Notes under the pieces: model-generated | Databases searched by the model: none | Told to the model about the DNA's origin: nothing | Seen by the model: only the letters and a program-made list of their open reading frames with translations | Position numbers and translations under genes: made by a program | Part shown: positions 1,797 through 18,704 of the stretch, one piece after another | Numbering within the stretch: position 1 is the stretch's first letter | Layout: every line of letters starts with the position of its first letter | From: Cloacimonetes bacterium UBA5456 | GTDB taxonomy: Bacteria; Cloacimonadota; Cloacimonadia; Cloacimonadales; Cloacimonadaceae | Direction: 5' to 3' | Length of the DNA stretch: 39,128 nucleotides | Assembly: GCA_002427325.1 (NCBI GenBank) | Contig: DIQS01000033.1 | Coordinates: 37,396-76,523 of the forward strand

Positions 1797-2834
1797 ATGA
1801 AAAAAGTTATTTTGACACTTATCGTTGTTTCAACGATGTTTGGTCTGTTAAATGCAGCGCCATTTCAGACCCTTGGCATGCTGAGAACGCCAGACGCGTA
1901 TGTTTTGCCACACAAAGCAGCAGAATTTATGGTCGCAGGATACTATCTTGATATTGCCCAACCGCAAGATGCGGCATTTAAGGGCTTTATGCCTTATGCA
2001 ATGGTGGGAGCCGGCATATTAGACCGTTTAGAAATCGGTGCATTTGTCGGAAGCAAGGTCAACGATGAGCCTATGGTTTATTTTCTCAATGCAAAAGTAA
2101 AGATTTTGGAAGAGACAAACACCCTTCCGCAATTTGCACTTGGAATGGACAACATCCTCTCCAGCCAGAAGTATCATAATGGTCTTAACCTAAATCCCGG
2201 CGATGATTTTTATACCCATCCGGATAAGACCGACTATGAAAACTATTCAATCTATGGAGTTGTCTCGAAGCAGGCTTATTTCCTCGGTATGCCTTGGATG
2301 TTGAATGTTGGCATGGGATCAAATCGCTTTGCAGGACAGGTTAAACGCTCTCGTATCCTTCAATCAAGCTTTGTTTCTGCTGAGTTTTCACCCGTCAACA
2401 ATCTCGCTATTCAAGGCGAATTTGACGGTGCAGACTTTAATCTGGGTTTGAGATACAGCTATGATAATTTCTCATTCAAGCTGGGTGCTCAGTCCGTGGA
2501 AGACTTAGCGAAAAACAATGGCTATGAAGACAACCTTCGCGTTGCTTTCGCTGTTTCTTATCTCTTTGACAAGTATGCCGAAGCTCATCGCCGTCCTCAG
2601 CTTAGCAGCCTTAACAAGCCTGGAATGACCGGCGGCACTGTTGACGTTGGTTCCCAAGGTCAGGCCGGTGGGGTCGTTGTACCGCCCACAGGTTCCACGG
2701 GCACCGCACAAAGCATGCTTTCACCTGAAGTAAGAAACTTGTTAGAAGAGCTCAGAATCTTACGTGAAGAACGCAGTAAAGCACAGAAATCTTTGGACGA
2801 CTTACGTCTGCTTATCCAAGAACTGAAACAATAA
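1797..2834 (+). CDS. Putative outer-membrane beta-barrel protein with a Gly/Pro-rich linker and a C-terminal coiled-coil tail
   Basis: The ATG at 1797 is preceded by GGAGGG (the ORF track starts at GTG 1785). Signal peptide MKKVILTLIVVSTMFGLLNA. Alternating hydrophobic beta-strand patterns end in an internal beta-signal-like VAFAVSYLF. About 85 aa follow: GGTVDVGSQGQAGGVVVPPTGSTG, then the heptad-like EVRNLLEELRILREERSKAQKSLDDLRLLIQELKQ. Confidence 0.7.
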   Translation: MKKVILTLIVVSTMFGLLNAAPFQTLGMLRTPDAYVLPHKAAEFMVAGYYLDIAQPQDAAFKGFMPYAMVGAGILDRLEIGAFVGSKVNDEPMVYFLNAKVKILEETNTLPQFALGMDNILSSQKYHNGLNLNPGDDFYTHPDKTDYENYSIYGVVSKQAYFLGMPWMLNVGMGSNRFAGQVKRSRILQSSFVSAEFSPVNNLAIQGEFDGADFNLGLRYSYDNFSFKLGAQSVEDLAKNNGYEDNLRVAFAVSYLFDKYAEAHRRPQLSSLNKPGMTGGTVDVGSQGQAGGVVVPPTGSTGTAQSMLSPEVRNLLEELRILREERSKAQKSLDDLRLLIQELKQ

Positions 2835-2985: not shown

Positions 2986-5900
2986 ATGAGAAATTTTATA
3001 AAAGTATTCTTGATGATACTCTTGTTGCAGGCTTGTCTGTCTCTTGCCAATGCCTTCATCGAAAACCTTAGTGAAGAAGAGATATTAATCCTTGCCGAAG
3101 AGTTGCAAGAAGAAGACATAGAGATGCTTATGGAATTCATAAGCGAAGAAAAGCAGATGATGAGAGAGCTTTCAAAACAGTTCCTGATCGACGAGCTTCC
3201 CCAACTAATAGCACTTGATCCAGAGCAAGCAGGAATAGCATTGGAGAGCTTTTCCGAATCTTTCAACTATATGAGAGATGAGGAAGTCAGGTATCTTTTG
3301 GGACATCTCTATGCGCGTATAGGCCAGACGGATAGGGCTATTGACACCTTTGCCGCTTTGCTCGAAACAGATTTTGATCTTGATTCACGGAAAATGATGG
3401 GACTCATGTTCCACAGCATCTTGTCTGAACTCATAGAAGCGGGAGAAAATGAACTGTCATTCCGCTATCTGAATACTATCCTCAGCCACGGATTGGTGTC
3501 TGATGAACTCATACTCAGTTATCTCTATCTTTTTTCTGAATTAAATCAGGACAAACAAGATGTGCTCAGCACCATCCAATCCTATATGGAGAACAATGGA
3601 ACCCTGCTTGAAGTGATCCTTCCAGTTAAAAACTCAGTGTTATCCAGATTGGAACAAATTGATTTTGAAACTTTTTATCAGAACCCAAGTGAAAACAACC
3701 TTAAAGCTATTATCCGAGATATAGACCAAATTGAGATAGACCTTGGTGCATTAAATAGCATCGTTCAAGAAATGCCGAACACCTTGTTTAAGCCTCGCTT
3801 GAACAAGCAACATAAATCTGAGGTCAAGAAGCTCCAGGAGCTTAGAGACCATCTTACTGTGTATGCCGGAGTGCCTTTGCTCTCCGAACGGGTTCAAGAC
3901 CAAACTTTGGATATTATCGCACAAATCCGCGTAAGCATACAACAATACTATCGCACTCTTGACATCATTGAAGCCTATTTGAACAAATATTATGCAGACT
4001 ATGAGGCAGGCCTCCTTGTTGAAGATGAAATCTTTATGGGTGACCTCTATCTTGACAGTGCAATCCAGTTGGAGCAGACGGTTAAGATCTATGAAGAAAT
4101 GCTTGAGATCCTCGACGAACTGCTTTTGGAAGATATCGAAGCTGGATACCTCGAAGAACTGAGACAACAGCGTGAAGAGATCGTATCGGAAAAAGCTCGC
4201 ATCGAAGCTGCTCATAGAGAACTGCTCGCAAACGTTGAATTTGAGAGTAGCGAAGATATGATTATCTTTGAAGAGCTGCTTGACGGATATAACGACATTC
4301 AAGAAGAAGCTCGCCTAATGACCTTGATCTGTGACGAGATAGAAGATTTTGTGATGAACGATATGACAGACATCTTGGGCGTTGATCTCAAGCAAGCAAA
4401 GATTGATAGAGTAGATACCGGCATTCAAGAGCTTTTGGCGGATCAAGGTCTTATTGATGAGCTTGGCCAAGCTTATGAACAGTCTGTCACCGAGCTTGAC
4501 TTCATCACTCTCAAGCTAAAATATCGTCGCCAGATCGATGAATATGAAGCTTTTATCGCCACACAAAATGAACTTAGCGATGATGAGCTATTTGAAAACC
4601 AAGCAATACAGCGCGGTAAACTCTCTGCAATAGCTAACGAAATTGAGGCCTTCCGCAGAGAACATCCCAATTATCAGGGGATGATTCAGCCCACCGGGAT
4701 ATATTTTGCACAAGAAGCTGACCTTCATTATATGTTGGGTGAATTAGAGTATTATGCTCATCCCGAAGATATGACGATCGCACAGAATCATTTCCGCAGC
4801 GCTCTTAGATTAGATCCGAAATTCCCCGATAGAGACCTCGCTCTTTATAACCTTGCCTTCATCAGCACTGAACTCATCAGACAAGAAGTGGATAACAACA
4901 AGATTAGCTATCGCATGAATGCAAGAGTCAATGAAGAGCCTCCGGCAAACAGCATCTATTCCGTGGCAAACTTTGCCGAACCTTTTAACGCTCTTACCGA
5001 GATCGTGAATAACTATCCGAATTCAAAAATGCATGAAGATGCAATATATCGTCTCGGTCTTTTGAACTTTAGCTTTGCTCGCGACTCGAAAGACCCCGAG
5101 CAATATGAAGATGCTGCACTTGCCCACTTCAACCAGATCATTGCCAATGAGGATAGTCCTCTTTATTATGAGGCACTTTATCAGCGTGGTTGGGTTCGCA
5201 TGAACAGCTTTGAACACGATGTCTTGCGCCAGGCTATGGACGACTTTGTTTATATCCTCTTGGCCATCGATGCAGGTCACATAGAAGACCCTCAACTCGT
5301 GGCTGACTATCGTCAAGACGCCGTGGATAACATCGCCTACTGTCTCATTGCTTTTGACGGAACAGACTTCTATTCCCAGACCAAGAGTGTGGCTGAAGTT
5401 CAAAGAGTCTTCAATAACTATAGCAATGAAGAGGTGATGGAGCAGATCATTGACGGCGCAATTCGCAACAAGTTAGACCTCAGCGCATCCACGCAGGCTG
5501 TTGACCTGTTGGAACTCAAGCTGAATGCAGTCCCTTATTCCTATTATAATCCCGTCATCCTCGACTCTATCTTGGTTCTCTATCACAATGCCGGACAGGA
5601 ATTGCGCGATGACCAAGACCTTGATGCCATCACTCAGAACATCTATCAGAGAATGATTGATGAATATGGCTATGGTAGTAAATGGTATGACGTTAACAAA
5701 GATAAAGAAATCAGCCGTCAGCTTGACATCATAGAAAATGCTTATTCCCAAAAAGCTATTCGCTTGTTCAACAATTTTGCCAATAACATTGGACATGAGA
5801 CCCTAAACAATTATGACAAGCACATGGCAGTGTTTGAAAAATATGCAGAGCTGCACAATGATGACTATCTTGCCTTCAAGGCAGAACGTGATAGTGTCAT

Positions 5901-8838
5901 GGTGTTTAACTATGCAGTTTTGGCTTCAACAACCGAAGATTCAAAAGACTTTGTCTTGGCAATATCCAAGCTGAACGAATATAACGATAAATATCCCCAC
6001 AACACACGTTTCTTCGAATATGAGCAAATGACACTGGAATATGCCAAGGCTCTCTTCGTCAGAGCTCAAAATAACTTTGCTGACCCAGATTTTGTTCCCG
6101 TCGAAGGTGATTTTACTGACGAAGATGAGGCCTTCACATTCCTGCAAAATAGAACTACTCGATATATGAACGTTATTCGCCAAGAAGAATATTACACTGC
6201 TCAGAGACTCAGAGAAGCAAACGATCTGATTTTGCTCTTGGCAGATACTCAATTCATGCGCGAAAAATTGCCCGAGGCTACTCAGCTCTATTTGCAGGCT
6301 CTTCAAGAAGAAGATATCATGACAAATAGCCAAAAGAGAGAAACCTATCTCAAGCTTGCCGACATGAGTGAGCGTCAAGGTGAATATGCCAAGTCTGAGG
6401 GATGGTTCCGTCAAGCATTGGCATATGCCCAAAACTCTGAAGATGAAGCAAACATCAGACAGGATATCTTAGTTCAGATTCAAAACAGCTTTGAAAAAGC
6501 CAGCGAAAGCGGCGACTTCATCACAGAAGCTAATGAGCGTTTGCGCCTTGCTGCTGAGATGGGAGCCGGACGCGGCATTGAAGTCTTGGGTCAAAAGAAC
6601 GCTGCTGTGGAAGCTTTCACAAAAGCCGGAGCCTATCAACAGGCAATTGATCTCTTGATGGAATTAGCTGAAACTGACGATACTATCGATGCAGTGTATT
6701 ACCGCTATCACCAAGCCATCGAGATTGCAGAAGAAAAGATGCTCGACAAGGAATATGCCCAGGCTCTCGAATCAGAGTTTTTGACAAAGTATCCTGCAAG
6801 CCTCTATGCCTTCCAGTTGCGCTTGGCTTCAGTAAGTCGCAAAGCAGTGGCAGAAGAGCATGTTCAAGCCGCAGAAGGCTTCTTACAGCTCTTTAATGAA
6901 GCCAGAGCAAACACCATCGACTATGGTGACCAAGTGGTCAGCGAATTGCTCATGGACGCTATCCTGATGAACAGCAGAGCAAACCGCATTGAAGAAGAGT
7001 ACCGTTTGTGCCATCAATTCATTGAGCTTTACCCCGAGCTTCCCGAAGCACTGATATATCTTGAACACATGGTTGTGGGACACAGAGACAGAAATGAGAT
7101 GGACGAACATCTTCGTCTTGCCAAAGAACTCATGAAAAAAGATCCCTCGAAAGATGGATATTATAAATATTATGCCAATAGTGAGCTTCACAAGGTCGCT
7201 TTGCGCTTTGACGAAGCCTACATCGAAAAGGATTATACCCAAGCATTTGCTATCCGTGATGAATATCGCACAATGCAACATGGCTTTGAAAATGAGGGGC
7301 TGAGTTTTGATAACCAAGCTGTCTATAATATCTTTGCCCAAGTTCAGGCAGAATATGATGAGCTGCAGCGCAAGCTTGCCTATCTCAAGAGTTTTGACGA
7401 TAAGCTCAGTGCCATTGAGCACGGAGACTTCATGAGTAAGACTCCGAATCAGCACGTGAGAGTAAACAATCTTACGACATGGAATAGAAACTTAGAGAAC
7501 GGCGACCGTCGCATTCCGCTCTTTAACACGGCAACCTCTGCCGAAGTTAAAAAGGTGGAGAAGATTCTCAACGATGGCTTTGCCTCCGGATACTACTTAG
7601 ACAATGACCGCATCACGAGATCCTATAATCTCATGGCTAAAATCCATGAAAAAGCTGTAGATGTGTTGGACACACAAGTAAGAAGCTATTGGGAAATCAC
7701 CGGTGAAGGTCGTGAAAATAGAAATTACTATGGCGAAAACTTCGGGATTCTCGTAGAACAGACTGTCTGGCAACAGATCTTGCCTCATATTCAAGCATCT
7801 CTTGGCTATCACTCTTTTCTACATACAAACTATTATTTAGCGGGTTATGAAAACAGCTTTACGGAAGCTGCAATCACAGCCCTGAACAAATATGAACAGA
7901 TTCCTGAATATCGCACCGTGGACTATGTGCTCGACAACCAGTGGCAGATCACCGGCAATCCTCAGAGTGCAGACACAAACATCACGCAGATCAGGACTCC
8001 AAAGAATGTAGCTTTGGGTAGCATCAACGTTCCTGCCGAGAACACTCTCACCATCTCTCGCAGCCTGCAGTTTGACTTAGAGCCTGACTTTGCTCTACTT
8101 CAGCTCATCTTCCCTCTTGAAATGGATATCTGGGTTAATGGCAGTGCTGTGAGTTCCAGTTGGGTGCCCGTTGATACTTTGGACACAAAGAATGCTGATA
8201 CCACACGTTATAGTTATATGATCGACGGTTCATATTTTGCCCCCGGTGGAAATGAACTGCAGATTGTCTTTAACAATAACGACTCATCAAGTTTGCAGGC
8301 AGCCGCTGCAGTGAAGCTCTTCACCTCACGCGCACGCATCTTGGAGAACATTCCTCCCGTCAGTCAGAGCATTAGCAGCTCGACGAACTGGATTGTTTAC
8401 CACGTCGATGATGAAGGTGAGGAGATCAGACAAAGAGCAAATCTTGCTGAGAATTGGAACATCGAAAACGAAAACCTCTTCGACTGGGAGATCGCAGAAG
8501 CACTGCCGATCTGGATAGTCGAAGATGAAGAAACAACTATAAATAACATCGTATTTGAAACGGAATTCATGATTGACACTCAATTCCTTGAAGGCATGAT
8601 CGACATCATTGCGCCCGAATCTGTCACCGTCTATCTAAATGACGTAGAAATAGGTGGAGCAATGTTTGACTATGATCCCGAGCCTCTCACGGTCTATAAG
8701 AGTCAAATACTAATCGAGCCACATCAGGTGGTGGAAGGACGAAACGTATTGCGTTTTGAAGTGGAAAACTTCAGCGAATACCGTGGAATCATGGCAAACA
8801 TCCATTACCTCGTTGCCGGTAAGGAGGAAATCAGATGA
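2986..8838 (+). CDS. Giant (1950 aa) secreted or lipoprotein-like protein: acidic N-terminal segment, long helical TPR-like region, two C-terminal beta-sandwich (galactose-binding-like) domains
   Basis: Uninterrupted 5853-nt ORF. Signal peptide MRNFIKVFLMILLLQACLSLANA. TPR-like units include LLGHLYARIGQTDRAIDTFAALLE, NHFRSALRLDPKFPDRDLALYNLAF and KLADMSERQGEYAKSEGWFRQALAYA. The C terminus is beta-rich, with DIWVNGSAVSS...GGNELQIVFNN and VTVYLNDVEIGG...EGRNVLRFEVENF. Confidence 0.85.
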   Translation: MRNFIKVFLMILLLQACLSLANAFIENLSEEEILILAEELQEEDIEMLMEFISEEKQMMRELSKQFLIDELPQLIALDPEQAGIALESFSESFNYMRDEEVRYLLGHLYARIGQTDRAIDTFAALLETDFDLDSRKMMGLMFHSILSELIEAGENELSFRYLNTILSHGLVSDELILSYLYLFSELNQDKQDVLSTIQSYMENNGTLLEVILPVKNSVLSRLEQIDFETFYQNPSENNLKAIIRDIDQIEIDLGALNSIVQEMPNTLFKPRLNKQHKSEVKKLQELRDHLTVYAGVPLLSERVQDQTLDIIAQIRVSIQQYYRTLDIIEAYLNKYYADYEAGLLVEDEIFMGDLYLDSAIQLEQTVKIYEEMLEILDELLLEDIEAGYLEELRQQREEIVSEKARIEAAHRELLANVEFESSEDMIIFEELLDGYNDIQEEARLMTLICDEIEDFVMNDMTDILGVDLKQAKIDRVDTGIQELLADQGLIDELGQAYEQSVTELDFITLKLKYRRQIDEYEAFIATQNELSDDELFENQAIQRGKLSAIANEIEAFRREHPNYQGMIQPTGIYFAQEADLHYMLGELEYYAHPEDMTIAQNHFRSALRLDPKFPDRDLALYNLAFISTELIRQEVDNNKISYRMNARVNEEPPANSIYSVANFAEPFNALTEIVNNYPNSKMHEDAIYRLGLLNFSFARDSKDPEQYEDAALAHFNQIIANEDSPLYYEALYQRGWVRMNSFEHDVLRQAMDDFVYILLAIDAGHIEDPQLVADYRQDAVDNIAYCLIAFDGTDFYSQTKSVAEVQRVFNNYSNEEVMEQIIDGAIRNKLDLSASTQAVDLLELKLNAVPYSYYNPVILDSILVLYHNAGQELRDDQDLDAITQNIYQRMIDEYGYGSKWYDVNKDKEISRQLDIIENAYSQKAIRLFNNFANNIGHETLNNYDKHMAVFEKYAELHNDDYLAFKAERDSVMVFNYAVLASTTEDSKDFVLAISKLNEYNDKYPHNTRFFEYEQMTLEYAKALFVRAQNNFADPDFVPVEGDFTDEDEAFTFLQNRTTRYMNVIRQEEYYTAQRLREANDLILLLADTQFMREKLPEATQLYLQALQEEDIMTNSQKRETYLKLADMSERQGEYAKSEGWFRQALAYAQNSEDEANIRQDILVQIQNSFEKASESGDFITEANERLRLAAEMGAGRGIEVLGQKNAAVEAFTKAGAYQQAIDLLMELAETDDTIDAVYYRYHQAIEIAEEKMLDKEYAQALESEFLTKYPASLYAFQLRLASVSRKAVAEEHVQAAEGFLQLFNEARANTIDYGDQVVSELLMDAILMNSRANRIEEEYRLCHQFIELYPELPEALIYLEHMVVGHRDRNEMDEHLRLAKELMKKDPSKDGYYKYYANSELHKVALRFDEAYIEKDYTQAFAIRDEYRTMQHGFENEGLSFDNQAVYNIFAQVQAEYDELQRKLAYLKSFDDKLSAIEHGDFMSKTPNQHVRVNNLTTWNRNLENGDRRIPLFNTATSAEVKKVEKILNDGFASGYYLDNDRITRSYNLMAKIHEKAVDVLDTQVRSYWEITGEGRENRNYYGENFGILVEQTVWQQILPHIQASLGYHSFLHTNYYLAGYENSFTEAAITALNKYEQIPEYRTVDYVLDNQWQITGNPQSADTNITQIRTPKNVALGSINVPAENTLTISRSLQFDLEPDFALLQLIFPLEMDIWVNGSAVSSSWVPVDTLDTKNADTTRYSYMIDGSYFAPGGNELQIVFNNNDSSSLQAAAAVKLFTSRARILENIPPVSQSISSSTNWIVYHVDDEGEEIRQRANLAENWNIENENLFDWEIAEALPIWIVEDEETTINNIVFETEFMIDTQFLEGMIDIIAPESVTVYLNDVEIGGAMFDYDPEPLTVYKSQILIEPHQVVEGRNVLRFEVENFSEYRGIMANIHYLVAGKEEIR

Positions 8839-9113
8839 GGAAATCACTATTAATCCTGCTCTTCGCTTTACTTGGAATCGGCTTCCTTTCCGCCCAATAT
8901 ACAGGAGGCGGCTACATCAATGCTGAGGGAGTCTATGTAGAAGAAGAAGAGTTCGTAATTGAGTTGAGGGACATGGCTCCCGACTCTGGAATCTATAAAA
9001 TCAAATTAGATACCTTTTTCATGAGCTATAAATATAGGATGGAGCTCACGGATGAGTGTGTCGAAGAATACAGTGAAGAATTACTAAATACATGGCTTAA
9101 GGAGTCAAAATGA
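8835..9113 (+). CDS. Small (92 aa) secreted protein of unknown function, translationally coupled on both sides
   Basis: AAGGAGG lies 7 nt upstream of the ATG. ATGA overlaps the giant gene stop at 8835-8838 and the exbB start at 9110-9113. Signal peptide MRKSLLILLFALLGIGFLSAQ. Confidence 0.7.
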   Translation: MRKSLLILLFALLGIGFLSAQYTGGGYINAEGVYVEEEEFVIELRDMAPDSGIYKIKLDTFFMSYKYRMELTDECVEEYSEELLNTWLKESK

Positions 9114-9874
9114 AAAAGAAACTTAACATCCTGATAATGGTATCTCTGCTTTTAAGCATGGGTATGCTGTTTGCACAAGAGACTGAAGCTGCTGCTGCCC
9201 CAGCCCCTACTGGCAGTGTCAACTTTATCGAAATGTACACCACAAGCGGATTTTTCGCTCATCTCATCGCAATTGTCGTGCTAATTGGCTTAGCAATGGC
9301 AGTAGTTCGCTACATGCAGTTGTATGTGCGCGAGAAGATTGATGCTGAAAAGTTTTTCTTAAAGCTTAAAAACTTTATCAAAAACGATCAGATTGACGAA
9401 GCCATTAAGGTTGCCGGTGAATTCCGCGGAACTACAATGGGCTTTATTTTCTGGAGCGGCCTAACTGTTTATAAAGATGTACGCAAATCCGGTAAAACCG
9501 GCGAAGAAGCTCGCATTTCAGTACAAAATGCTTTTGACGAAGCTGTTCTCCAAACAGTTCACAAACTTGACGGCGGCCTTTTCTGGTTTGATACCCTTGC
9601 TCAGATTGCCACCTATCTCGGTCTTCTGGGAACCATTTGGGGCTTGATCGCATCTTTTAGCAGCTTGAGTGGTCTCACCGGTGCTGCTGCAAACGTAGCT
9701 CTTACAAATGGTATTCAAATGGCAATGGGAACGACAGCTCTCGGTTTGTTCGGTGCAATCCCGCTCACGCTTCTCAAAGGCTGGTTCTTCACCCGTGCAT
9801 CCAATATCATTAACAATATTGATGAATACAGCGTTAAACTCGTAAACCACATCAACAACTATATTAAGGGCTAA
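9110..9874 (+). CDS. exbB: MotA/TolQ/ExbB family proton-channel protein with an N-terminal signal peptide
   Basis: 254 aa. SD AAGGAG. Three TM segments follow a cleavable-looking leader (MGMLFAQETEAA). The family hallmark LGLLGTIWGLIASF is followed by the GIQMAMGTTALGLFGAIP helix. Confidence 0.9.
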   Translation: MKKKLNILIMVSLLLSMGMLFAQETEAAAAPAPTGSVNFIEMYTTSGFFAHLIAIVVLIGLAMAVVRYMQLYVREKIDAEKFFLKLKNFIKNDQIDEAIKVAGEFRGTTMGFIFWSGLTVYKDVRKSGKTGEEARISVQNAFDEAVLQTVHKLDGGLFWFDTLAQIATYLGLLGTIWGLIASFSSLSGLTGAAANVALTNGIQMAMGTTALGLFGAIPLTLLKGWFFTRASNIINNIDEYSVKLVNHINNYIKG

Positions 9875-9878
9875 GAGC

Positions 9879-10406
9879 ATGGCAGTATATCGTCCTTCGC
9901 AGGCGAGGCAACAAAAGGGCCAGACAGCACCTCAGGAACCAAATTTGATTCCTATTATGAACCTGTTTCTAACCATCATTCCGTTTTTGCTTTTGATGGT
10001 GACGATCTCACAGGTTGCGCTGGTCGCCCTTAATTTTTCCTCGGATGGAGGCGGAGGTGGAGAAGGTGGCGGAGATGGTGGCGGTGGCGATAAAGCCAAG
10101 CAAATCGAAATTCATCTCATGCTGACGGATAACCAAGCCTTGGGACTTTTCCCCGGCATGGAAGTTCGAGAGCCTGGTACTGACACTGTTAGATTACCTT
10201 GGGTACGCGAGAATATCTATGATTTTGACGGTTTAAATACTCTTCTGAAAGCAATGAAAGAGCGTAATACAAGTACTGAAGAAATCAGCATTGTCGCCCA
10301 CAATGATGTGATCTACGACACTTTGATCCGCACGATCGACCTCTGCAAAGATAATGGCTTTAGTACCGTCCATTACAAAAGCCCAAGAAGTACTTATTAT
10401 TATTAG
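9879..10406 (+). CDS. exbD: ExbD/TolR family protein (paralog 1) with a poly-Gly insert after the TM helix
   Basis: 175 aa. NLIPIMNLFLTIIPFLLLM is the ExbD-type N-terminal TM motif. The C-terminal ISIVAHNDVIYDTLIRTIDLCKDNGFSTVHY is the typical periplasmic domain. The insert is SSDGGGGGEGGGDGGGGDK. Confidence 0.85.
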   Translation: MAVYRPSQARQQKGQTAPQEPNLIPIMNLFLTIIPFLLLMVTISQVALVALNFSSDGGGGGEGGGDGGGGDKAKQIEIHLMLTDNQALGLFPGMEVREPGTDTVRLPWVRENIYDFDGLNTLLKAMKERNTSTEEISIVAHNDVIYDTLIRTIDLCKDNGFSTVHYKSPRSTYYY

Positions 10407-10426: not shown

Positions 10427-10960
10427 ATGGCATTAAGAAGTTCCAAGCCCGGAACCAGAGTAGTCAGAAAAAAAGCTGATGATGTTCAAGGTCTTTCCAT
10501 TACATCGCTTTTGGACGTTCTGACGATTATCTTGGTTTTCCTCATCAAAAACGTATCGATGGAAGCCGTGAAGATTTCCGAATTGCCCGATATGATATAT
10601 CCGACTACTATCACCACTGAGAATTTGATGGAAAATGCAGCCGTGACACCTGTTAAGATCTATACAGATCGTGTCCTTTTGGGTAATGATAACCAATTAC
10701 TCGGAAGCCCTGCAGACCTCACCGAAAACCCTCAGGTGCGCTCGGATATGGTAAACTATTTGCGCTATGAATTCAACGTCATCCCAGAAGACAAAAAAGA
10801 TGACGCCTGTTTGATAGTGCAATCGGATTCAAATATCCCTTGCGGATATATCACGGAAATCGTTGGCGCAGCTGTCGGCACCGGTTTTGCGAATATTTAT
10901 TTTGCAACATTAGAAGATGAACAATGGCTACAACACCATGTTTCTTCTACTGGAAAATAA
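10427..10960 (+). CDS. exbD: ExbD/TolR family protein (paralog 2)
   Basis: 177 aa. SD GGGGGAGG. LSITSLLDVLTIILVFLI is the TM motif. CLIVQSDSNIPCGYITEIVGAAVGTGFANIYFAT is the periplasmic domain. Confidence 0.85.
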   Translation: MALRSSKPGTRVVRKKADDVQGLSITSLLDVLTIILVFLIKNVSMEAVKISELPDMIYPTTITTENLMENAAVTPVKIYTDRVLLGNDNQLLGSPADLTENPQVRSDMVNYLRYEFNVIPEDKKDDACLIVQSDSNIPCGYITEIVGAAVGTGFANIYFATLEDEQWLQHHVSSTGK

Positions 10961-10970
10961 CGGAGGTCAG

Positions 10971-12389
10971 ATGGCAAAGATATTAAGTTTAAGACTCAAC
11001 TATAAAGATAAGTTCCTGGATTATGCCAAGGAAGGTAAAGAGATCAAAAAGAGCTTTACCGTTGGATCTAACAAATTCATGCAATGGCAAATCCTTGATC
11101 CCAAGTTCCCGGACAAACACGTCTTAGTCAAAAAGAAAGGCGGGGAATATGTTTTGAACATGCTACCCGGCGCAAAGCTGAGCGTGGAAAAAGGAGGCAA
11201 TTCTGTAGATGCAAATTATCTAAAACAGAACAATTTGCTCTCCATGAACGAGCTTACCCTCAAAGAAGACATGAAGGGAACCCTTTCTCTGGCTCCCGAT
11301 TGGGAAGTGGAGTTTGAATACAGAACCCCTTGGGTTGTCGTGCTTACTCCCGAAGAAAAGGCAATTGTAGCCCAATATGCTCGCAGAGCAAGACCGGATG
11401 CAGTAGCCCGATTTAATCGAACCGTAATTTTACTTGTGTTGGCACTTACGATAGTATTCAGCATTATATTTGAGTTATTCCTCAAACCTGAATATAAAAC
11501 GCAAGCTGACACTATTTCTGAACTGTTACAATCGATGGAACAAAAAGCCCAAAAAGTGGAAGTATCAAAGCTTGATGCACCCACAACCGGTTATGATGTG
11601 CCCCCACCCGTTGAAGAAGTGACGGGAGATGATGCAGCTCCGACCACCGGTGCTGCAAGCTCAGGGGCTGCAAGACCAAGTGGACCCTCAGGTTTGGGGG
11701 CTGCAATGGGAGGATTTGATCCTAATGCAGTTTCTGCTGCTCCCACAATCTCCATCGTCACCGTTGCAACCGGATTCGCCGTAAACCGTCCCGGTGGCGG
11801 AAGACCCGGAAGCGGAAGTGGAACAGGCGGCAGTGGTGCAGGCGGTGGCGCAGGTAGTGCAGGAACCGTCTTTGATCCCACCGCATTGCCGGTCTCCGGT
11901 GATGTTGGAAGCGTGGCAACTCAAGGTCCTCGCACCAGTGGCTCACTTACTCGCCCCGAAGGCGCTGTCGGCACACACGTAACAGGAGACGCAAGTAAAC
12001 TTGCACCCAGCGGAAAAGCTTGGGGAGACATCGTAGCCCAACAAAGGATCGAAGCTGAATACAGGCAAATGGGACTTAGCACCGTTACAGAAGCTTCAAT
12101 CGGAACCTTGGATGAAGCAGGAAAAGCAAAGTATGCCAGTCTCAAAGACCAAGTCGAATCTCGCAAAGGACAGATCGAAACTGTCTATAGAGAGATGCAA
12201 ATCAGACAAAGCGTAAGCTTCACCATCACCATCTTTGTTGGAGCAGACGGCTCCGTTCGCGAATCAAAAGTAGTGCCAAATGGACAATATCCTGAAGCAT
12301 TCGTCGCGAAAGTAAAACAAGTTGTCGATAGCTGGAGATTCAACGTAAGAGAAGCAATGCCATATCAATTCCGCATGCGTGCTGGTTGA
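10971..12389 (+). CDS. TonB_C-type energy transducer-like protein with an ~150-aa FHA-like cytoplasmic N-domain, one TM helix and a long Gly/Pro/Ala/Ser linker
   Basis: I prefer the ATG at 10971: GGAGG lies 4 nt upstream, it sits 10 nt after the exbD stop, and the track start at 10917 would overlap exbD. TM helix VILLVLALTIVFSIIFELFL. The linker is about 180 aa of low complexity. The C terminus SFTITIFVGADGSVRESKVVPNGQYPEAFVAKVKQVVDSWRFN resembles TonB_C. Confidence 0.75.
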   Translation: MAKILSLRLNYKDKFLDYAKEGKEIKKSFTVGSNKFMQWQILDPKFPDKHVLVKKKGGEYVLNMLPGAKLSVEKGGNSVDANYLKQNNLLSMNELTLKEDMKGTLSLAPDWEVEFEYRTPWVVVLTPEEKAIVAQYARRARPDAVARFNRTVILLVLALTIVFSIIFELFLKPEYKTQADTISELLQSMEQKAQKVEVSKLDAPTTGYDVPPPVEEVTGDDAAPTTGAASSGAARPSGPSGLGAAMGGFDPNAVSAAPTISIVTVATGFAVNRPGGGRPGSGSGTGGSGAGGGAGSAGTVFDPTALPVSGDVGSVATQGPRTSGSLTRPEGAVGTHVTGDASKLAPSGKAWGDIVAQQRIEAEYRQMGLSTVTEASIGTLDEAGKAKYASLKDQVESRKGQIETVYREMQIRQSVSFTITIFVGADGSVRESKVVPNGQYPEAFVAKVKQVVDSWRFNVREAMPYQFRMRAG

Positions 12390-12418: not shown

Positions 12419-12446
12419 GCCCCGCTATCATGGCGGGGCTTTTTAT
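12419..12446 (+). terminator. Rho-independent terminator closing the envelope operon
   Basis: GCCCCGC (12419-12425), loop tatcatg, GCGGGGC (12433-12439), then TTTTTAT. It begins 30 nt after the stop at 12389. Confidence 0.8.
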
Positions 12447-12536
12447 ATTCCTGCGATTCTTATAACGAAACCAGAGCATCGGTCTTGTTTCCATCTGCAA
12501 TCGCCCAAATAATGAACTATACACTAAGCTTTGCTA

Positions 12537-16838: not shown

Positions 16839-18704
16839 TCACTTTATAATGCTTAGTTTTTTAATGTCATATCTTCCGCCATCCTCTTCATATCTAATGA
16901 AATAGATGCCCGAGGAAGGGAATATTCTGCTGGATAGTTCCAGCGTGGATGACCTTTGTTTTTCTTCAAATATCTTCTGACCGCGCAGGTTATAGACAGT
17001 CACTCTGCCACCTTCTCCGTTGAGTTTGCAATTGAAATCCTGTTGACCGTAACCCGGATTGGGATAAATCTCAATGGCGACTTGCGGGGTCTCTTCTTCA
17101 TGCTCCGGCCCTTCGGACTCCATGCTAAAGTCTTTATAGCCAACATGATGGATCTTTCCGGTGCCACCTTGTTGCAGCCAATAATAGATGCGATAGTCGG
17201 AGGAATATCCATCATCGAGCCCAACTGTGCTGAAACTATAGCTTTTGCCGGCAGATTGGCCTTTGAGTATCTTGTGATTAATGGTGTCGGCACGGGCTAT
17301 CCATCTGCTAAGGATGTAATAATTTCCATCATCCTCTCTGGATAGATTAAATAATCCCACATGAAGCTTGGAATTGAGGACGGGGTTAGCGGCTTGTGTA
17401 TCAAATAGTTGAGTGTTATCGTTATCAAATCTTATCGTCACTTCTTTGCGTGCCGCGCTTTCCGAATCTACCAGATTGAGGGTGGACCTGCTGATGAAGC
17501 TGCGATATTTCGACAATCCATTTGTGGCATTTTGAAAGTTTTGTGAATATGCCGTATTGAGCCCTGTTATCAGCTTCTCGCCGACAATCATCGTGCGCGG
17601 TAAAGAATTGAATCGATAGTCGTTAAAGCGTTGTTGCGATGGGATATTGCCCGGTTCATCCGTGAGCAGCGGATAATATTCTATGGGATGCATTTTCTCT
17701 GATAAAATAGACTCTTGATAATATCTTATTGTGTTGGCATCCTGGCTGCGAACGAAGTTTTCCACCAAATATATGGGATATTCGTCCTGATAAACATTTA
17801 AATTAACGGTCTTTTTATTGTTTACAAGCAGCGTATCGTTCTCAACAAGAGAAGAGCTAATCTTCGCTTCTATACGAAGTTGAGTGGGTTCGCTCGGCAA
17901 AAGAAATGTTGCACTCGTCAGCTCGATATCGTGTTGGGTCTGTCCGAACAAATTTTGGGGAACGCTGAATTCAAGATTTTCATAACCGGTTTCGCCCGGG
18001 CGGCTGAAAATCAGGTTCAGCTTCGTGTCATAAGCCATCTGTTGGCTATGGTTATATACCTTTAAGACGGGATAAACTGGGTTGCCCGGAAGAATATCAC
18101 CTGCGAAGCTGATCTGCTCCAATTCCAAGCCGTCTTGCGGGAACACATAGTCTCCCAAAAGGCCAAAAAGCAGCTCCGCCGCAAATCCGTTTTGCTCAAA
18201 ATTTGTTAAGGTCTGGATGTCACCATATTCCTGCATGTAATAGCTGTGACTGCCTCCGCCCGCACTTGCAGCAACGAATTTATTGAGGATATTTGTTTGA
18301 TAATCAACGAAGAGCCACGCTGCTTCCGCACTATATTGAGTGTTAAAATGATGGTCGATGATGTGATCGTCAACAGTGATTGTCGCAAACTCTATGAGTG
18401 TGCCGGGCTCGCCGGCATTATCGCTATATAGCTGAATCATAGCATCATTGCCAATGCTCGGGAAATATAATCTTGCGCCGCGAGTGGTGAAATAGACCTC
18501 TGATACGGAGGAATATTTACTGCGAAAATCAAAGCGAACCGCCCAAGTTGAGGGGCCAAAAAAGTTGTAGTCTTCTGTGCCGCTGTGATGACGGAAATGA
18601 TATTCACGTTCGGGCGGAAAGACCTCCTCACCGCTGGAAGGATGATAGCCTATGCCAAATAAAAGGCCAAAAAGGAAGAAGGCTATGGGCAATATGCGCT
18701 TCAT
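16839..18704 (-). CDS. Secreted protein of unknown function with a type-A T9SS C-terminal sorting domain
   Basis: 621 aa. Signal peptide MKRILPIAFFLFGLLFGIG. The last ~80 aa (VAIEIYPNPGYG...VTVYNLRGQKIF...SGIYFIRYEE...KKLSIIK) match the Por/T9SS CTD pattern. The start overlaps the ribF stop by 4 nt. Confidence 0.8.
   Translation of the reverse strand: MKRILPIAFFLFGLLFGIGYHPSSGEEVFPPEREYHFRHHSGTEDYNFFGPSTWAVRFDFRSKYSSVSEVYFTTRGARLYFPSIGNDAMIQLYSDNAGEPGTLIEFATITVDDHIIDHHFNTQYSAEAAWLFVDYQTNILNKFVAASAGGGSHSYYMQEYGDIQTLTNFEQNGFAAELLFGLLGDYVFPQDGLELEQISFAGDILPGNPVYPVLKVYNHSQQMAYDTKLNLIFSRPGETGYENLEFSVPQNLFGQTQHDIELTSATFLLPSEPTQLRIEAKISSSLVENDTLLVNNKKTVNLNVYQDEYPIYLVENFVRSQDANTIRYYQESILSEKMHPIEYYPLLTDEPGNIPSQQRFNDYRFNSLPRTMIVGEKLITGLNTAYSQNFQNATNGLSKYRSFISRSTLNLVDSESAARKEVTIRFDNDNTQLFDTQAANPVLNSKLHVGLFNLSREDDGNYYILSRWIARADTINHKILKGQSAGKSYSFSTVGLDDGYSSDYRIYYWLQQGGTGKIHHVGYKDFSMESEGPEHEEETPQVAIEIYPNPGYGQQDFNCKLNGEGGRVTVYNLRGQKIFEEKQRSSTLELSSRIFPSSGIYFIRYEEDGGRYDIKKLSIIK

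What the first reader, a model, noticed from the sequence alone, without database searches (positions are those of the whole stretch)
10971..12389. TonB_C-type transducer with an FHA-like cytoplasmic input domain
Classical TonB has only a few cytoplasmic residues before its TM anchor. Here about 150 aa precede the TM helix (VILLVLALTIVFSIIFELFL). The stretch FTVGSNKFMQWQILDPKFPDKHVLVKKKGGEYVLNMLPGAKLSVEKGG...LTLKEDMKGTLSLAPDWEVEFEY has the layout of an FHA-type beta-sandwich: xxVGxxxxxDIxL, then a His-containing strand, then an 'xYxL' strand, then a closing strand. After the TM helix comes a Gly/Pro/Ala/Ser linker of roughly 180 aa (high-GC DNA, 11590-12000) and then a compact TonB_C-like domain. 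An FHA-like or other phosphothreonine/partner-binding module on the cytoplasmic side would let intracellular signalling or a cytoskeletal partner control an envelope-spanning rod. That arrangement is reminiscent of the TonB-like GltG/GltJ components of the myxobacterial gliding machine, by analogy only.
Basis: partly seen in the sequence, partly recalled or inferred. Interest (0 to 1): 0.62.

Follow-up and report, generated by a model that had tools for sequence, protein, structure and literature searches.

The report
GltG-like motor transducer, pseudo-FHA head
This gene encodes a membrane protein that probably carries force from a proton-driven inner-membrane motor to the outer envelope; it is a distant Cloacimonadota relative of GltG from the Myxococcus gliding machine, so the build is already known, and its FHA-like head has lost the residues that read phosphothreonine.

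Summary
Window 10971-12389 encodes a 472-aa protein with one membrane helix. It has a cytoplasmic 125-aa beta domain, two short helices, the membrane helix (aa 152-172), a Gly/Ala/Thr/Pro/Ser-rich spacer and a TonB/TolA-fold C-domain.

The N-domain model matches FHA/SMAD-fold structures, but only weakly (Foldseek E >= 0.028). Pfam FHA does not hit. The phosphothreonine-binding Arg and Ser positions hold Ser and an almost invariant Pro.

The GltG resemblance is remote homology, not just analogy. Family profiles match a myxobacterial GltG-position family at both ends (N-domain hhalign 96.7%, E 3e-10; C-domain 84.7%, E 7e-6). That family's N-domain maps onto the domain next to the membrane helix in GltG, which a published model docks on the AglR motor ring.

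The gene closes a seven-gene operon conserved across deep Cloacimonadota lineages: barrel-like protein, about 1950-aa TPR giant, 92-aa protein, ExbB/TolQ-like, two ExbD-like, then this gene. The N-domain was found in 149 of 201 sampled genomes of the phylum.

Most likely it is a short-form GltG-type transducer whose pseudo-FHA clamps the motor and does not sense phosphorylation. It is a new member of a known kind. This scan has noted the same build about 40 times in other genomes.

The parts
10962..10966 (+). Shine-Dalgarno GGAGG, 4 nt before the start codon
   Evidence: Read directly from the sequence.
10971..12389 (+). Whole gene, 472 aa plus stop: short-form GltG-like transducer (P0001)
   Evidence: Translation. 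52 homologues found, the named ones all Cloacimonadota/Cloacimonetes. Full-length alignment.
10971..11345 (+). Cytoplasmic pseudo-FHA beta-sandwich domain (aa 1-125). Signature: L5-x-L-x-L-x-YKGK ... I-G32-S-x-K-x-x-x-W39-Q-I-L-D-x-x-F46-P47-x-K-H50 ... G103
   Evidence: AF2 model pLDDT 82.8, pTM 0.67. Foldseek matches to FHA/SMAD-fold structures, probability up to 0.98 but E >= 0.028. Conservation. hhalign to the myxobacterial GltG-position family: 96.7%, E 3.2e-10.
11346..11423 (+). Two conserved helices next to the membrane (aa 126-151, LTPEEKxIVAQYARR...RFNR), basic, on the cytoplasmic side
   Evidence: DSSP on the model gives helices at 127-137 and 144-151. Invariant or near-invariant L125, T126, E128, A134, F148, N149, R150.
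11424..11486 (+). Single transmembrane helix (aa 152-172), with no conserved Ser-x3-His motif
   Evidence: Hydropathy and charge counts. Any His occurs in only 5 of 112 family membrane-helix windows.
11487..11582 (+). Periplasmic charged stretch just after the membrane (aa 173-204)
   Evidence: Sequence; conserved LKPE and A193/V196. It was not included in either structure model.
11583..11990 (+). Low-complexity Gly/Ala/Thr/Pro/Ser spacer (aa 205-340) with conserved short islands (GFDPNA, IVTVxEGF, RPGG, GSVAT-GP, RPEG)
   Evidence: 69% G/P/S/A/T. GC 0.58-0.61. Invariant F249, T264, G275, G324, P329.
11991..12386 (+). Periplasmic C-terminal module (aa 341-472): conserved DASxLAPSG block, helices (aa 354-408) and a TonB_C/TolA-III-like beta-beta-alpha-beta core (aa about 415-472) of the AgmX/PglI type
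   Evidence: AF2 pLDDT 94.4. Foldseek top hits are TolA-III and TonB C-terminal domains. NF033768 matches 36 of 39 members, best E 1.6e-6, all below the curated cut-off. hhalign A3 against A6: 84.7%, E 6.7e-6.
12419..12447 (+). Intrinsic terminator that closes the operon
   Evidence: 9-bp GC-rich stem plus a T run.
9110..9874 (+). ExbB/TolQ-like proton-channel subunit, the presumed docking partner
   Evidence: PF01618 E 6.8e-22. TIGR02796 TolQ E 2.1e-21, a better score than ExbB.
9879..10406 (+). ExbD/TolR-like paralogue 1, with Asn where the transmembrane Asp normally sits
   Evidence: PF02472 E 3.7e-9. PIMNLF motif conserved in 5 deep lineages.
10427..10960 (+). ExbD/TolR-like paralogue 2, which keeps the transmembrane Asp
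   Evidence: PF02472 E 3.8e-6. SL(L/I)D(V/I)LTI motif conserved.
2986..8838 (+). 1950-aa secreted TPR giant of the same operon, a likely periplasmic scaffold
   Evidence: TPR families and a weak YbgF/CpoB hit. The gene holds the same position in related loci.
8835..9113 (+). 92-aa secreted protein, in the position GltF holds relative to the TPR genes
   Evidence: ORF. Same position in related loci. No family hit.
1797..2834 (+). About 345-aa secreted barrel-like protein with a Gly-rich linker and a coiled-coil tail; first gene of the operon
   Evidence: Translation. Same position in related loci. No significant family hit.

Best explanation
P0001 is a short-form member of the GltG (PglI) family. 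These are TolA/TonB-like periplasm-spanning transducers that serve a TolQ/TolR-type 5:2 proton motor.

Shown here:
- The topology is N-terminus inside, with one membrane helix.
- The cytoplasmic N-domain has an FHA-like fold and lacks the phosphothreonine-binding residues.
- The C-domain has a TonB/TolA fold.
- Both end domains are remotely homologous to a myxobacterial family that occupies the GltG position in Glt/Nfs-type clusters.
- That family's N-domain maps to the domain next to the membrane helix in GltG.
- The gene is always the last one of a conserved operon that also encodes one ExbB/TolQ-like and two ExbD/TolR-like subunits, a secreted TPR giant, a 92-aa secreted protein and a barrel-like protein.

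Inferred:
- The membrane helix sits on the outside of the ExbB pentamer.
- The pseudo-FHA domain and its two basic helices clamp the cytoplasmic face of that pentamer, as AlphaFold modelling proposed for the GltG central FHA on AglR5 (PMC11761067).
- Proton flow through the ExbB5-ExbD/ExbD' motor moves or remodels the transducer.
- The flexible spacer, with its conserved short motifs, binds the periplasmic TPR giant.
- The C-domain engages an outer-envelope partner by beta-strand addition.

What the whole machine delivers (surface transport, adhesion or gliding, or envelope tethering) is unknown.
For: Architecture and start.

Folds:
- N-domain: pLDDT 82.8, and every Foldseek match of probability 0.6 or more is FHA or SMAD/IRF fold.
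- C-domain: pLDDT 94.4, with TolA-III and TonB C-terminal domains on top.

Loss of the phosphothreonine residues.

Sequence links to GltG-type proteins:
- The family profile A4 hits a Haliangium ochraceum 'AgmX/PglI C-terminal domain-containing protein' (P0144, 474 aa, same build) at E 2.6e-5 against 5.8 billion sequences.
- hhalign of A1 against P0144 aligns the N-domains at 93.7%, E 1.9e-7.
- A1 against the 21-sequence myxobacterial alignment A6 gives 96.7%, E 3.2e-10.
- The C-domains (A3 against A6) give 84.7%, E 6.7e-6.

Identity of the A6 family:
- Its member P0233 sits in the gene order 2x OMP_myx_plus, GltC-like (NF033756, E 2e-22), a 1050-aa YbgF-type TPR protein, GltE-like (NF033758, E 7e-28), a 107-aa protein, then P0233 itself (NF033760 gliding_GltG, E 6e-33).
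- Positions 106-324 of the GltG model match the N-part of P0233 (E 1.4e-10).
- A6's N-domain aligns to aa 424-540 of a GltG-like protein that has a canonical N-terminal FHA (P0264), at 99.1%, E 5.6e-19. This is the domain just before the membrane helix.
- The direct comparison of A2 with P0264 lands in the same place (aa 413-485) but is weak (E 0.0076).

Operon conservation at 18-40% identity.

Phylum survey: 149 of 201 genomes have a match, nearly always one per genome.

This is a third, separate motor system. The genome has two other ExbB-ExbD-TonB-like sets, one of them next to a TonB-dependent receptor.

The operon's ExbB finds as its best match in a Kofleriaceae genome the TolQ-like gene that is followed by two TolR-like genes (33% identity, E 4e-12, against 25% and E 1.4e-11 for a set with one TolR).

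Published GltG architecture and the docking model: PMC3169522 and PMC11761067.
Against: - No member of the family hits the curated GltG model NF033760, and the AgmX/PglI-domain hits all lie below the curated cut-off.
- The link to M. xanthus GltG itself is transitive, through an intermediate family. I could not obtain the M. xanthus sequence.
- Foldseek E-values are weak (0.02-0.3), and hhalign against canonical FHA domains is not significant (E 0.25).
- Docking of the N-domain on ExbB is inferred from a published prediction for another protein, not tested here.
- One distant lineage (P0115) carries the gene away from any motor genes.
- Whether the TPR giant is homologous to GltC/D/E was not tested by me.
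Confidence: 0.72

Rival explanations
1. One reading: the N-domain is a working FHA-type phosphopeptide reader. Ser/Thr kinases, or a cytoskeletal partner carrying phosphothreonine, would then switch the envelope-spanning rod on and off.
For: The fold is FHA-like. The most conserved residues (IGS-x-K...WQILD..FP-x-KH) lie in the segment aligned, though not significantly, to the FHA beta3-beta5 loop region. The genome has 5 Ser/Thr kinase domains and 4 canonical FHA domains, so the signalling system exists. Conserved Lys35 and Lys49 could in principle contact a phosphate.
Against: The Arg position is never Arg, and the Ser position is Pro in 111 of 112 sequences. Pfam FHA does not hit. An exhaustive profile search of 1.8 billion proteins links the N-domain to no canonical FHA protein. 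There is no kinase or phosphatase in the operon. The myxobacterial homologues carry the same Pro.
Confidence: 0.08
2. A functional substitute for Tol-Pal. The protein acts as the TolA of a divergent Tol-like system, and the TPR giant plays a CpoB/YbgF-like role. The machine would tether or constrict the outer membrane, not move cargo or cells. This rival concerns function and is compatible with GltG-family ancestry.
For: The ExbB scores best against TolQ (E 2.1e-21). The giant has a weak YbgF/CpoB hit (E 5.9e-6). The top structural matches of the C-domain are TolA domain III. No TolB N-domain was found in this 90%-complete genome. The gene is nearly always one copy per genome and widespread in the phylum.
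Against: There is no TolB or Pal in or near the operon. There are two ExbD paralogues, a barrel-like protein and a 1950-aa giant, none of which is a Tol-Pal feature. The gene was not found in about a quarter of the sampled high-quality genomes, including whole families (0 of 8 and 0 of 6), which is odd for a core division function. The genome has another ExbB-ExbD-TonB_C-like set at C32 that could serve as a Tol-like system.
Confidence: 0.15
3. An ordinary TonB that energises TonB-dependent receptors and merely carries an N-terminal extension.
For: The C-domain has the TonB_C fold. The gene lies next to ExbB and ExbD genes. 4 of 39 members give weak Pfam TonB_C hits.
Against: No TonB-dependent receptor lies in the operon. 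One of the genome's two Plug-domain receptors sits beside another ExbB-ExbD-TonB set at C33, and the other is at C14. There is no Pro-rich EP/KP spacer and no conserved His in the membrane helix. The C-domain scores higher against the AgmX/PglI model than against the TonB models.
Confidence: 0.03

Closest known systems
GltG (PglI, MXAN_4867) of the Myxococcus xanthus Agl-Glt gliding / bacterial focal-adhesion machinery, with its paralogues in Nfs-type clusters
   Same: It has one membrane helix with the N-terminus inside. A cytoplasmic FHA-fold domain lies directly before the membrane helix, followed by a long disordered periplasmic spacer and a TonB_C-like AgmX/PglI-type C-domain. It partners a TolQ-like subunit plus two TolR-like subunits and secreted TPR scaffolds (PMC3169522, PMC11761067). 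Remote homology of both end domains, through the Haliangium/Kofleriaceae family, is shown.
   Different: It is 472 aa against 640 aa and lacks the extra canonical N-terminal FHA (PF00498) of GltG. It gives no hit to the curated GltG model. The motor genes lie in the same operon, whereas M. xanthus keeps aglRQS at a separate locus. The TPR partner is a single 1950-aa giant. No match to MglB (Robl_LC7) and no small Ras-type GTPase was found in the genome, and GltI, GltJ and AglZ were not searched for. The organism is an uncultured anaerobe with no known motility.
Short GltG-position proteins of Haliangiales/Kofleriaceae ('AgmX/PglI C-terminal domain-containing protein', e.g. Haliangium ochraceum P0144, 474 aa)
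   Same: The length and domain order are the same, and neither family gives a Pfam FHA hit. A Pro sits at the FHA 'Ser' position and the Gly is invariant. hhalign gives 96.7% for the N-domain and 84.7% for the C-domain.
   Different: About 20% identity. The myxobacterial proteins have a Pro-rich then Gly-rich spacer and Cys residues in the C-domain. They sit after GltC/D/E/F-like genes with no adjacent motor genes.
TolA and TonB (Tol-Pal and Ton systems)
   Same: One membrane helix associated with a 5:2 ExbB/TolQ-ExbD/TolR motor, a periplasm-spanning spacer, and a C-terminal beta-beta-alpha-beta domain.
   Different: TolA and TonB have only a few cytoplasmic residues and a conserved Ser-x3-His motif in the membrane helix. 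They partner TolB/Pal or TonB-dependent receptors. None of these features is present here.
Phospho-independent FHA-like domains of envelope machines (the cytoplasmic domain of T3SS YscD/PrgH; the N-terminal FHA domains of T7SS EssC). This comparison is from my own knowledge of the literature and was not tested here.
   Same: A degenerate FHA fold placed next to a membrane helix and used as a scaffold, not as a phosphothreonine reader.
   Different: These belong to unrelated machines, and they did not appear among the top 50 Foldseek matches.

Membership tests
GltG/PglI family (Agl-Glt/Nfs-type transducers) | One membrane helix, N-terminus cytoplasmic, C-terminus periplasmic | tested here: met
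   One hydrophobic peak at aa 152-170, with 5 Lys/Arg before it and 1 after it. No N-terminal signal peptide.
GltG/PglI family (Agl-Glt/Nfs-type transducers) | An FHA-fold domain directly before the membrane helix, homologous to the GltG 'central FHA' (M. xanthus residues 190-329) | tested here: met
   Met through a transitive chain. A1 against A6 N-domains: 96.7%, E 3.2e-10. The A6 member P0233 N-part matches GltG model positions 106-324 at E 1.4e-10. A6 against GltG-like P0264 aa 424-540: 99.1%, E 5.6e-19. The direct comparison of A2 with P0264 finds the same site but only at E 0.0076.
GltG/PglI family (Agl-Glt/Nfs-type transducers) | C-terminal AgmX/PglI-type TonB_C-like domain (NF033768) | tested here: inconclusive
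   36 of 39 members hit NF033768 (best E 1.6e-6), but all lie below the 40-bit cut-off, and P0001 itself scores 17.7 bits. Homology to the myxobacterial C-domain: 84.7%, E 6.7e-6. The fold is TonB/TolA-like.
GltG/PglI family (Agl-Glt/Nfs-type transducers) | Score over the curated GltG equivalog model NF033760 (650 bits), meaning orthology with M. xanthus GltG | tested here: not met
   No NF033760 hit at E <= 0.1 for P0001 and none among the 25 families listed at E <= 1 for the 39 members. It is therefore a remote family member and not a GltG orthologue.
GltG/PglI family (Agl-Glt/Nfs-type transducers) | An additional canonical N-terminal FHA domain (PF00498), as in M. xanthus GltG | tested here: not met
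   No PF00498 hit. The protein starts directly with the pseudo-FHA domain. The short myxobacterial family also lacks it.
GltG/PglI family (Agl-Glt/Nfs-type transducers) | Genomic association with a TolQ-like plus two TolR-like motor and with secreted TPR scaffold proteins | tested here: met
   The order ExbB, ExbD, ExbD and then this gene holds in all four loci examined. The barrel-like protein, the TPR giant and the small protein precede the motor genes in three of them; the fourth contig is too short to show this. Homology of the giant to GltC/D/E was not tested by me.
FHA domain (Pfam PF00498) | Match to the family HMM | tested here: not met
   No hit for any of 24 N-domains at E <= 1. hhalign against four canonical FHA domains of the same genome: E 0.25. 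The exhaustive N-domain profile search recovers only this family.
FHA domain (Pfam PF00498) | FHA/SMAD-type beta-sandwich fold | tested here: inconclusive
   Every Foldseek match of probability 0.6 or more is an FHA or SMAD/IRF-fold structure (3hx1, 6ccd, 5xzv, 4h87, IRF IAD domains, N-MH2), with TM-score up to 0.63 on the target length. However, E >= 0.028, and the model places a helix where FHA strand beta4 lies.
FHA domain (Pfam PF00498) | Phosphothreonine-binding residues: Arg after the conserved Gly, Ser of SxxH, and Asn of the beta6-beta7 loop | tested here: not met
   Arg position: Ser 88, Thr 9, Lys 7, Gln 6, Asn 2, and Arg 0 of 112. Ser position: Pro 111 of 112. Presumed Asn position: Pro, Lys and others. 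The Gly is kept in 112 of 112 and the His in 81 of 112. The register rests on a non-significant alignment plus pattern matching.
TonB (PF03544 / TIGR01352) | TonB_C HMM over the cut-off, a Pro-rich rigid spacer, Ser-x3-His in the membrane helix, and service to TonB-dependent receptors | tested here: not met
   TonB_C gives weak hits in 4 of 39 members and TIGR01352 in 3 of 39. The spacer is Gly/Ala/Thr-rich. Any His occurs in 5 of 112 membrane-helix windows. The receptors lie elsewhere, one beside another TonB set.
TolA (Tol-Pal) | TolA domain III fold together with TolB/Pal partners | tested here: not met
   The fold matches TolA-III, but TolB_N was not found in the genome and no Pal/OmpA-type gene lies in the operon.

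The most novel reading that the evidence does not exclude
The Cloacimonadota operon may be a self-contained, minimal form of the Agl-Glt 'core complex', with the motor, a single short GltG, one fused TPR scaffold, a GltF-position protein and an outer-membrane barrel in one transcription unit. In it, the pseudo-FHA head would be a dedicated clamp or gate on the cytoplasmic face of a heteromeric stator that has one proton-binding ExbD and one Asn-bearing ExbD. If so, it would be the simplest natural system for working out how TolQR-type motors pass force to a GltG-type rod, and what the non-gliding 'core complex' does. It could be this phylum's replacement for Tol-Pal.
Probability: 0.25. Interest if true: 0.6.

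Novelty: new member of a known kind. Interest (0 to 1): 0.36.

Why it matters
The FHA-fold, membrane helix and TonB_C build has been known since GltG/PglI was described in 2011, and a 2025 modelling study proposed that the FHA domain next to the membrane docks on the motor ring. The build is therefore not a new signalling device.

This locus adds three things:
- It extends the family, by sequence-level evidence, to Cloacimonadota, a phylum not among those listed for the 'core complex' in the 2011 survey read here (PMC3169522).
- It shows that the domain next to the membrane is a distinct, conserved pseudo-FHA family. The Pro at the phosphate-binding Ser position is shared with the myxobacterial relatives. 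This argues for a structural, motor-binding role across the family.
- It offers a compact seven-gene operon, nearly always present once per genome, in which every presumed partner is encoded together. That makes it convenient for structure prediction and reconstitution.

Tried and rejected
- Pfam, NCBIfam and PDB sequence searches of P0001 and of the N-domain profile gave no usable family for the N-domain. The PDB sequence hits to the spacer (scFv linkers, WAVE1) are low-complexity noise.
- hhalign with -glob against own-genome FHA domains gave a meaningless end-to-end alignment. The local mode was not significant.
- The exhaustive N-domain profile search hit a 3100-aa protein (P0128) in 11 stretches. 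It is a subtilase with Big_3 Ig repeats, so I rejected the hit as accumulated beta-sandwich noise.
- The search for related loci with the very diverse alignment A4 failed because no stretch was conserved enough. The narrower A5 showed that even the most distant 'P0120 group' is Cloacimonadota.
- The C-domain profile against PDB sequences gave nothing.
- The look-up of encoding contigs had no record for the Haliangium protein, so I took the context from the Kofleriaceae member P0233 instead.
- Longer members of the myxobacterial family were scanned for a canonical FHA domain and none has one.
- I could not obtain the M. xanthus GltG sequence itself with these tools.
Full report
**What is there**

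Window 10971-12389 (+) is a 472-aa ORF (P0001). GGAGG lies at 10962-10966, four bases before the ATG. A stem-loop plus T-run terminator follows at 12419-12439. A longer ORF call from 10917 overlaps the upstream gene. All 38 aligned homologues share the MAK/MSK/MGK start, and one has an 11-residue called extension upstream of it, so 10971 is the start.

Hydropathy shows a single membrane helix at aa 152-172. The 15 residues before it hold five Lys/Arg and the 15 after it hold one, so the first 150 residues are cytoplasmic. Residues 205-340 are 69% Gly/Pro/Ser/Ala/Thr. Their DNA reaches 58-61% GC against 35-49% in the rest of the gene. The genome as a whole is 45% GC.

**The two folded ends**

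- The N-domain was modelled from a 24-sequence alignment (A2, aa 1-152). The model has mean pLDDT 82.8 and pTM 0.67. It shows an all-beta sandwich at aa 4-118, followed by two helices at 127-137 and 144-151 that lead into the membrane.
- Foldseek against the PDB gives no strong match (best E 0.028). Every match with probability of 0.6 or more belongs to the FHA or SMAD/IRF fold: Rad53, Synechocystis Slr1951 (3hx1, TM-score 0.63 on the target length), Rv1747 FHA-1, kanadaptin, the IAD domains of IRF4/5/9 and an N-MH2 domain. The APLF FHA domain also appears, at probability 0.41. The many TEAD and SlyD rows have probability below 0.1.
- The C-terminal 133 residues (A3) fold with pLDDT 94.4. They form three helices and then a beta-beta-alpha-beta core. 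The top 16 PDB matches are TolA domain III and the C-terminal domains of TonB, HasB and FusB, with E 0.02-0.3 and probability up to 0.92.

**Is the N-domain an FHA domain?**

By sequence it is not.
- Pfam FHA hits none of the 24 N-domains at E <= 1.
- The N-domain profile finds nothing relevant among PDB sequences.
- hhalign against four canonical FHA domains taken from this same genome is not significant (E 0.25).
- An exhaustive HMMER search of 1.84 billion representative proteins with the N-domain profile returns 81 proteins. Nearly all are 440-530 aa with the match at their N-terminus, which is the same family. No canonical FHA protein appears.

The best local hhalign alignment does put the family signature I-G32-S33 on FHA 'I-G-R' and F46-P47-x-K-H50 on 'S-x-x-H'. 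In that register, over 112 family sequences:
- The Gly is invariant.
- The phosphate-binding Arg position is Ser in 88 and never Arg.
- The phosphate-binding Ser position is Pro in 111.
- The structural His is kept in 81.

The domain is best described as a pseudo-FHA. It has an FHA-like sandwich whose most conserved segment aligns to the FHA beta3-beta5 loop region, but with chemistry that cannot bind phosphothreonine in the canonical way. The register is an inference, because it rests on a non-significant alignment.

**Relatives and distribution**

A word-based search found 52 homologues. Every named one is Cloacimonadota or Cloacimonetes. Even the most distant subgroup (18-20% identity) comes from Cloacimonadota MAGs. 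In a sample of 201 genomes of the phylum, 149 have a match. Among high-quality genomes the figure is 115 of 151. The window's own family has it in 84 of 87 genomes. There is nearly always one match per genome. Some families lack it entirely, at 0 of 8 and 0 of 6. The own genome holds one copy.

**Context**

The gene is the last of seven same-strand genes:
- an about 345-aa secreted barrel-like protein with a coiled-coil tail;
- a 1950-aa secreted TPR giant;
- a 92-aa secreted protein;
- an ExbB/TolQ-like subunit (PF01618 E 7e-22; TolQ scores better than ExbB in NCBIfam);
- two ExbD/TolR-like proteins;
- P0001.

The same order recurs at 40% identity (L019), about 18% identity (L020) and in another deep lineage (L030). 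A short contig (L029) shows ExbB-ExbD-ExbD followed by the gene. One distant relative (P0115) stands alone beside a YfbK-like VWA protein.

The own genome (2.02 Mb, 90% complete) has two further, ordinary sets. At C33 a TonB-dependent receptor is followed by ExbB, ExbD and a 210-aa TonB. At C32 there is ExbB, ExbD and a 219-aa TonB_C-like protein. The operon studied here is therefore a third, distinct motor system.

**The link to GltG**

M. xanthus GltG (PglI) was described in 2011 as a protein with one membrane helix, a cytoplasmic FHA domain and a TonB-like C-terminus. It belongs to a 'core complex' (gltC, D, E, G and aglR, Q, S) spread by horizontal transfer into several phyla (PMC3169522). 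A 2025 modelling paper found a second, 'central' FHA-fold domain (residues 190-329) directly before the membrane helix. It predicted that this domain and the helix dock on the AglR pentamer (PMC11761067). I tested whether P0001 is related to GltG or only similar to it.

1. A profile of 18 diverse family members hit a 474-aa Haliangium ochraceum protein (P0144) at E 2.6e-5 against 5.8 billion sequences. NCBI names it 'AgmX/PglI C-terminal domain-containing protein'. It has the same domain order and nearly the same length.
2. hhalign of the Cloacimonadota alignment against P0144 aligns the N-domains (aa 4-126 with 16-137) at 93.7%, E 1.9e-7. Against an alignment of 21 myxobacterial homologues (A6) the result is 96.7%, E 3.2e-10.
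3. The C-domains align independently at 84.7%, E 6.7e-6.
4. The A6 member P0233 (Kofleriaceae) sits in a textbook Glt/Nfs-type cluster. The order is two OMP_myx_plus barrels, a GltC-like protein (NF033756, E 2e-22), a 1050-aa YbgF-type TPR protein in the GltD position, a GltE-like protein (NF033758, E 7e-28), a 107-aa protein in the GltF position, and P0233 itself (NF033760 gliding_GltG, E 6e-33, below the equivalog cut-off).
5. In that genome, positions 106-324 of the GltG model match the N-terminal part of P0233 (E 1.4e-10).
6. A6 aligns at 99.1%, E 5.6e-19 with an 858-aa GltG-like protein of the same genome that has a canonical N-terminal FHA (P0264). The A6 N-domain lies on P0264 aa 424-540, the domain just before its last membrane helix, which corresponds to GltG model positions from 225 onward.
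7. The direct comparison of the Cloacimonadota N-domain profile with P0264 lands on the same segment (aa 413-485) in the same register, but only at E 0.0076.

The chain is transitive but consistent at every step. The N-domain of P0001 is a homologue of the pseudo-FHA next to the membrane helix in GltG-type proteins, and the C-domain is of the AgmX/PglI type. In line with this, 36 of 39 family members give sub-threshold hits to NF033768, against 4 to Pfam TonB_C.

No family member reaches the GltG equivalog model, and the canonical N-terminal FHA of GltG is absent. This is a remote, short-form member of the family and not an orthologue of GltG.

**How it most likely works**

Shown: the topology, the folds, the loss of phosphothreonine-binding residues, the homology, and the fixed association with one ExbB-like and two ExbD-like genes.

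Inferred:
- The membrane helix binds the periphery of the ExbB pentamer.
- The pseudo-FHA domain and the basic helices (conserved RFNR just before the membrane) clamp its cytoplasmic face, as predicted for GltG on AglR5.
- Motor activity is passed through the flexible spacer. The spacer's invariant islands (F249, T264, G275, G324, P329) look like short binding motifs for the periplasmic TPR giant.
- The C-domain binds an outer-envelope partner by strand addition, as TonB and TolA do.

As weak support for an Agl-type motor, the operon's ExbB finds as its best match in the Kofleriaceae genome the TolQ-like gene that is followed by two TolR-like genes. That match has 33% identity and E 4e-12, against 25% and E 1.4e-11 for a set with one TolR.

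No roadblock/MglB match was found. The only Ras-family hits lie in open frames of 402-876 aa, too long for a small GTPase. The myxobacterial polarity input is therefore probably absent, and this looks like a 'core' machine only. Its output is unknown. Gliding or adhesion, surface-polymer transport of the Nfs type, and a Tol-like tethering role all remain open. TolB_N was not found in the genome.

**Rivals**

- A working phosphothreonine reader is unlikely (0.08), given the residue data, even though the genome has five Ser/Thr kinases and four canonical FHA domains.
- An ordinary TonB is very unlikely (0.03).
- A Tol-Pal substitute (0.15) is a rival about function only and is compatible with GltG-family ancestry.

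**Novelty and score**

The build is published, and AI notes of this scan report about 40 similar finds in other genomes, including KSB1, Fermentibacterota, Bdellovibrio-like bacteria and myxobacteria. Another follow-up on this window read the giant gene as Glt-like. I treated these notes as leads. The GltG reading here rests.

What is new is modest. The family is extended to Cloacimonadota, and there is evidence that the pseudo-FHA next to the membrane is a conserved family of its own, with a Pro where FHA has the phosphate-binding Ser. The operon is also compact and holds every presumed partner. I class it as a new member of a known kind, with interest 0.36.

**Limits**

- The M. xanthus GltG sequence could not be fetched.
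- Foldseek E-values are weak for both domains.

Noticed in passing
window 9879-10406 and 10427-10960: The two ExbD/TolR-like paralogues differ at the proton-binding site. Paralogue 1 has Asn (PIMNLF) where ExbD/TolR has the essential transmembrane Asp. Paralogue 2 keeps the Asp (SLLDVLTI). The split is conserved in five deep Cloacimonadota lineages, which suggests a heteromeric plug with a single protonatable Asp. Both TolR-like genes of the Kofleriaceae motor examined keep the Asp.
   Followed up: partly
own genome G000:C56:59034-60569 (L003/L014), outside the window: A 512-aa open frame combines a Ser/Thr protein kinase domain (PF00069, E 8e-64), a membrane helix and a C-terminal TonB_C domain. 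That C-domain is nearly identical to the C-domain of the ordinary TonB at C33.
   Followed up: no
own genome G000:C18:5865-6281 (L001), outside the window: A small secreted protein of about 130 aa consists of a signal peptide plus a stand-alone copy of P0001's C-terminal domain (36% identity over 83 aa, BLASTP E 8e-18). It is a possible soluble competitor or partner for the same outer-envelope target.
   Followed up: partly
P0143, a Cloacimonadales genome (contig CAXXJV010000001.1): A 727-aa VWA-domain protein with an N-terminal hydrophobic segment ending in Cys (lipoprotein-like). Its last 96 residues are 50% identical to the C-domain of the distant P0120 group of this family (E 4e-26). The C-domain is therefore a movable module. 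The VWA link recalls the CglB adhesin of the Glt machine and the VWA 'force transducers' of PMC12204202.
   Followed up: partly
L031:10001-13195: In one distant lineage (P0115) the homologue is not next to any ExbB/ExbD genes. It is followed directly by a 612-aa YfbK-like VWA protein.
   Followed up: no
window about 11700-11960 (aa 245-330): The otherwise low-complexity spacer contains short islands that are invariant or nearly so across 39 homologues (GFDPNA, IVTVxEGF, RPGG, GSVAT-GP, RPEG). They look like linear binding motifs inside a disordered linker.
   Followed up: no
own genome G000:C58:132289-140871, outside the window: All four canonical FHA domains of the genome cluster within 7 kb, next to a Ser/Thr kinase. 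They include a double-FHA fused to an ABC transporter and an FHA attached to a membrane-anchored VWA protein.
   Followed up: no
window 16839-18704 (-): A 621-aa protein with a T9SS C-terminal sorting domain (Por_Secre_tail, E 1e-6), so the organism probably has a type IX secretion system.
   Followed up: no
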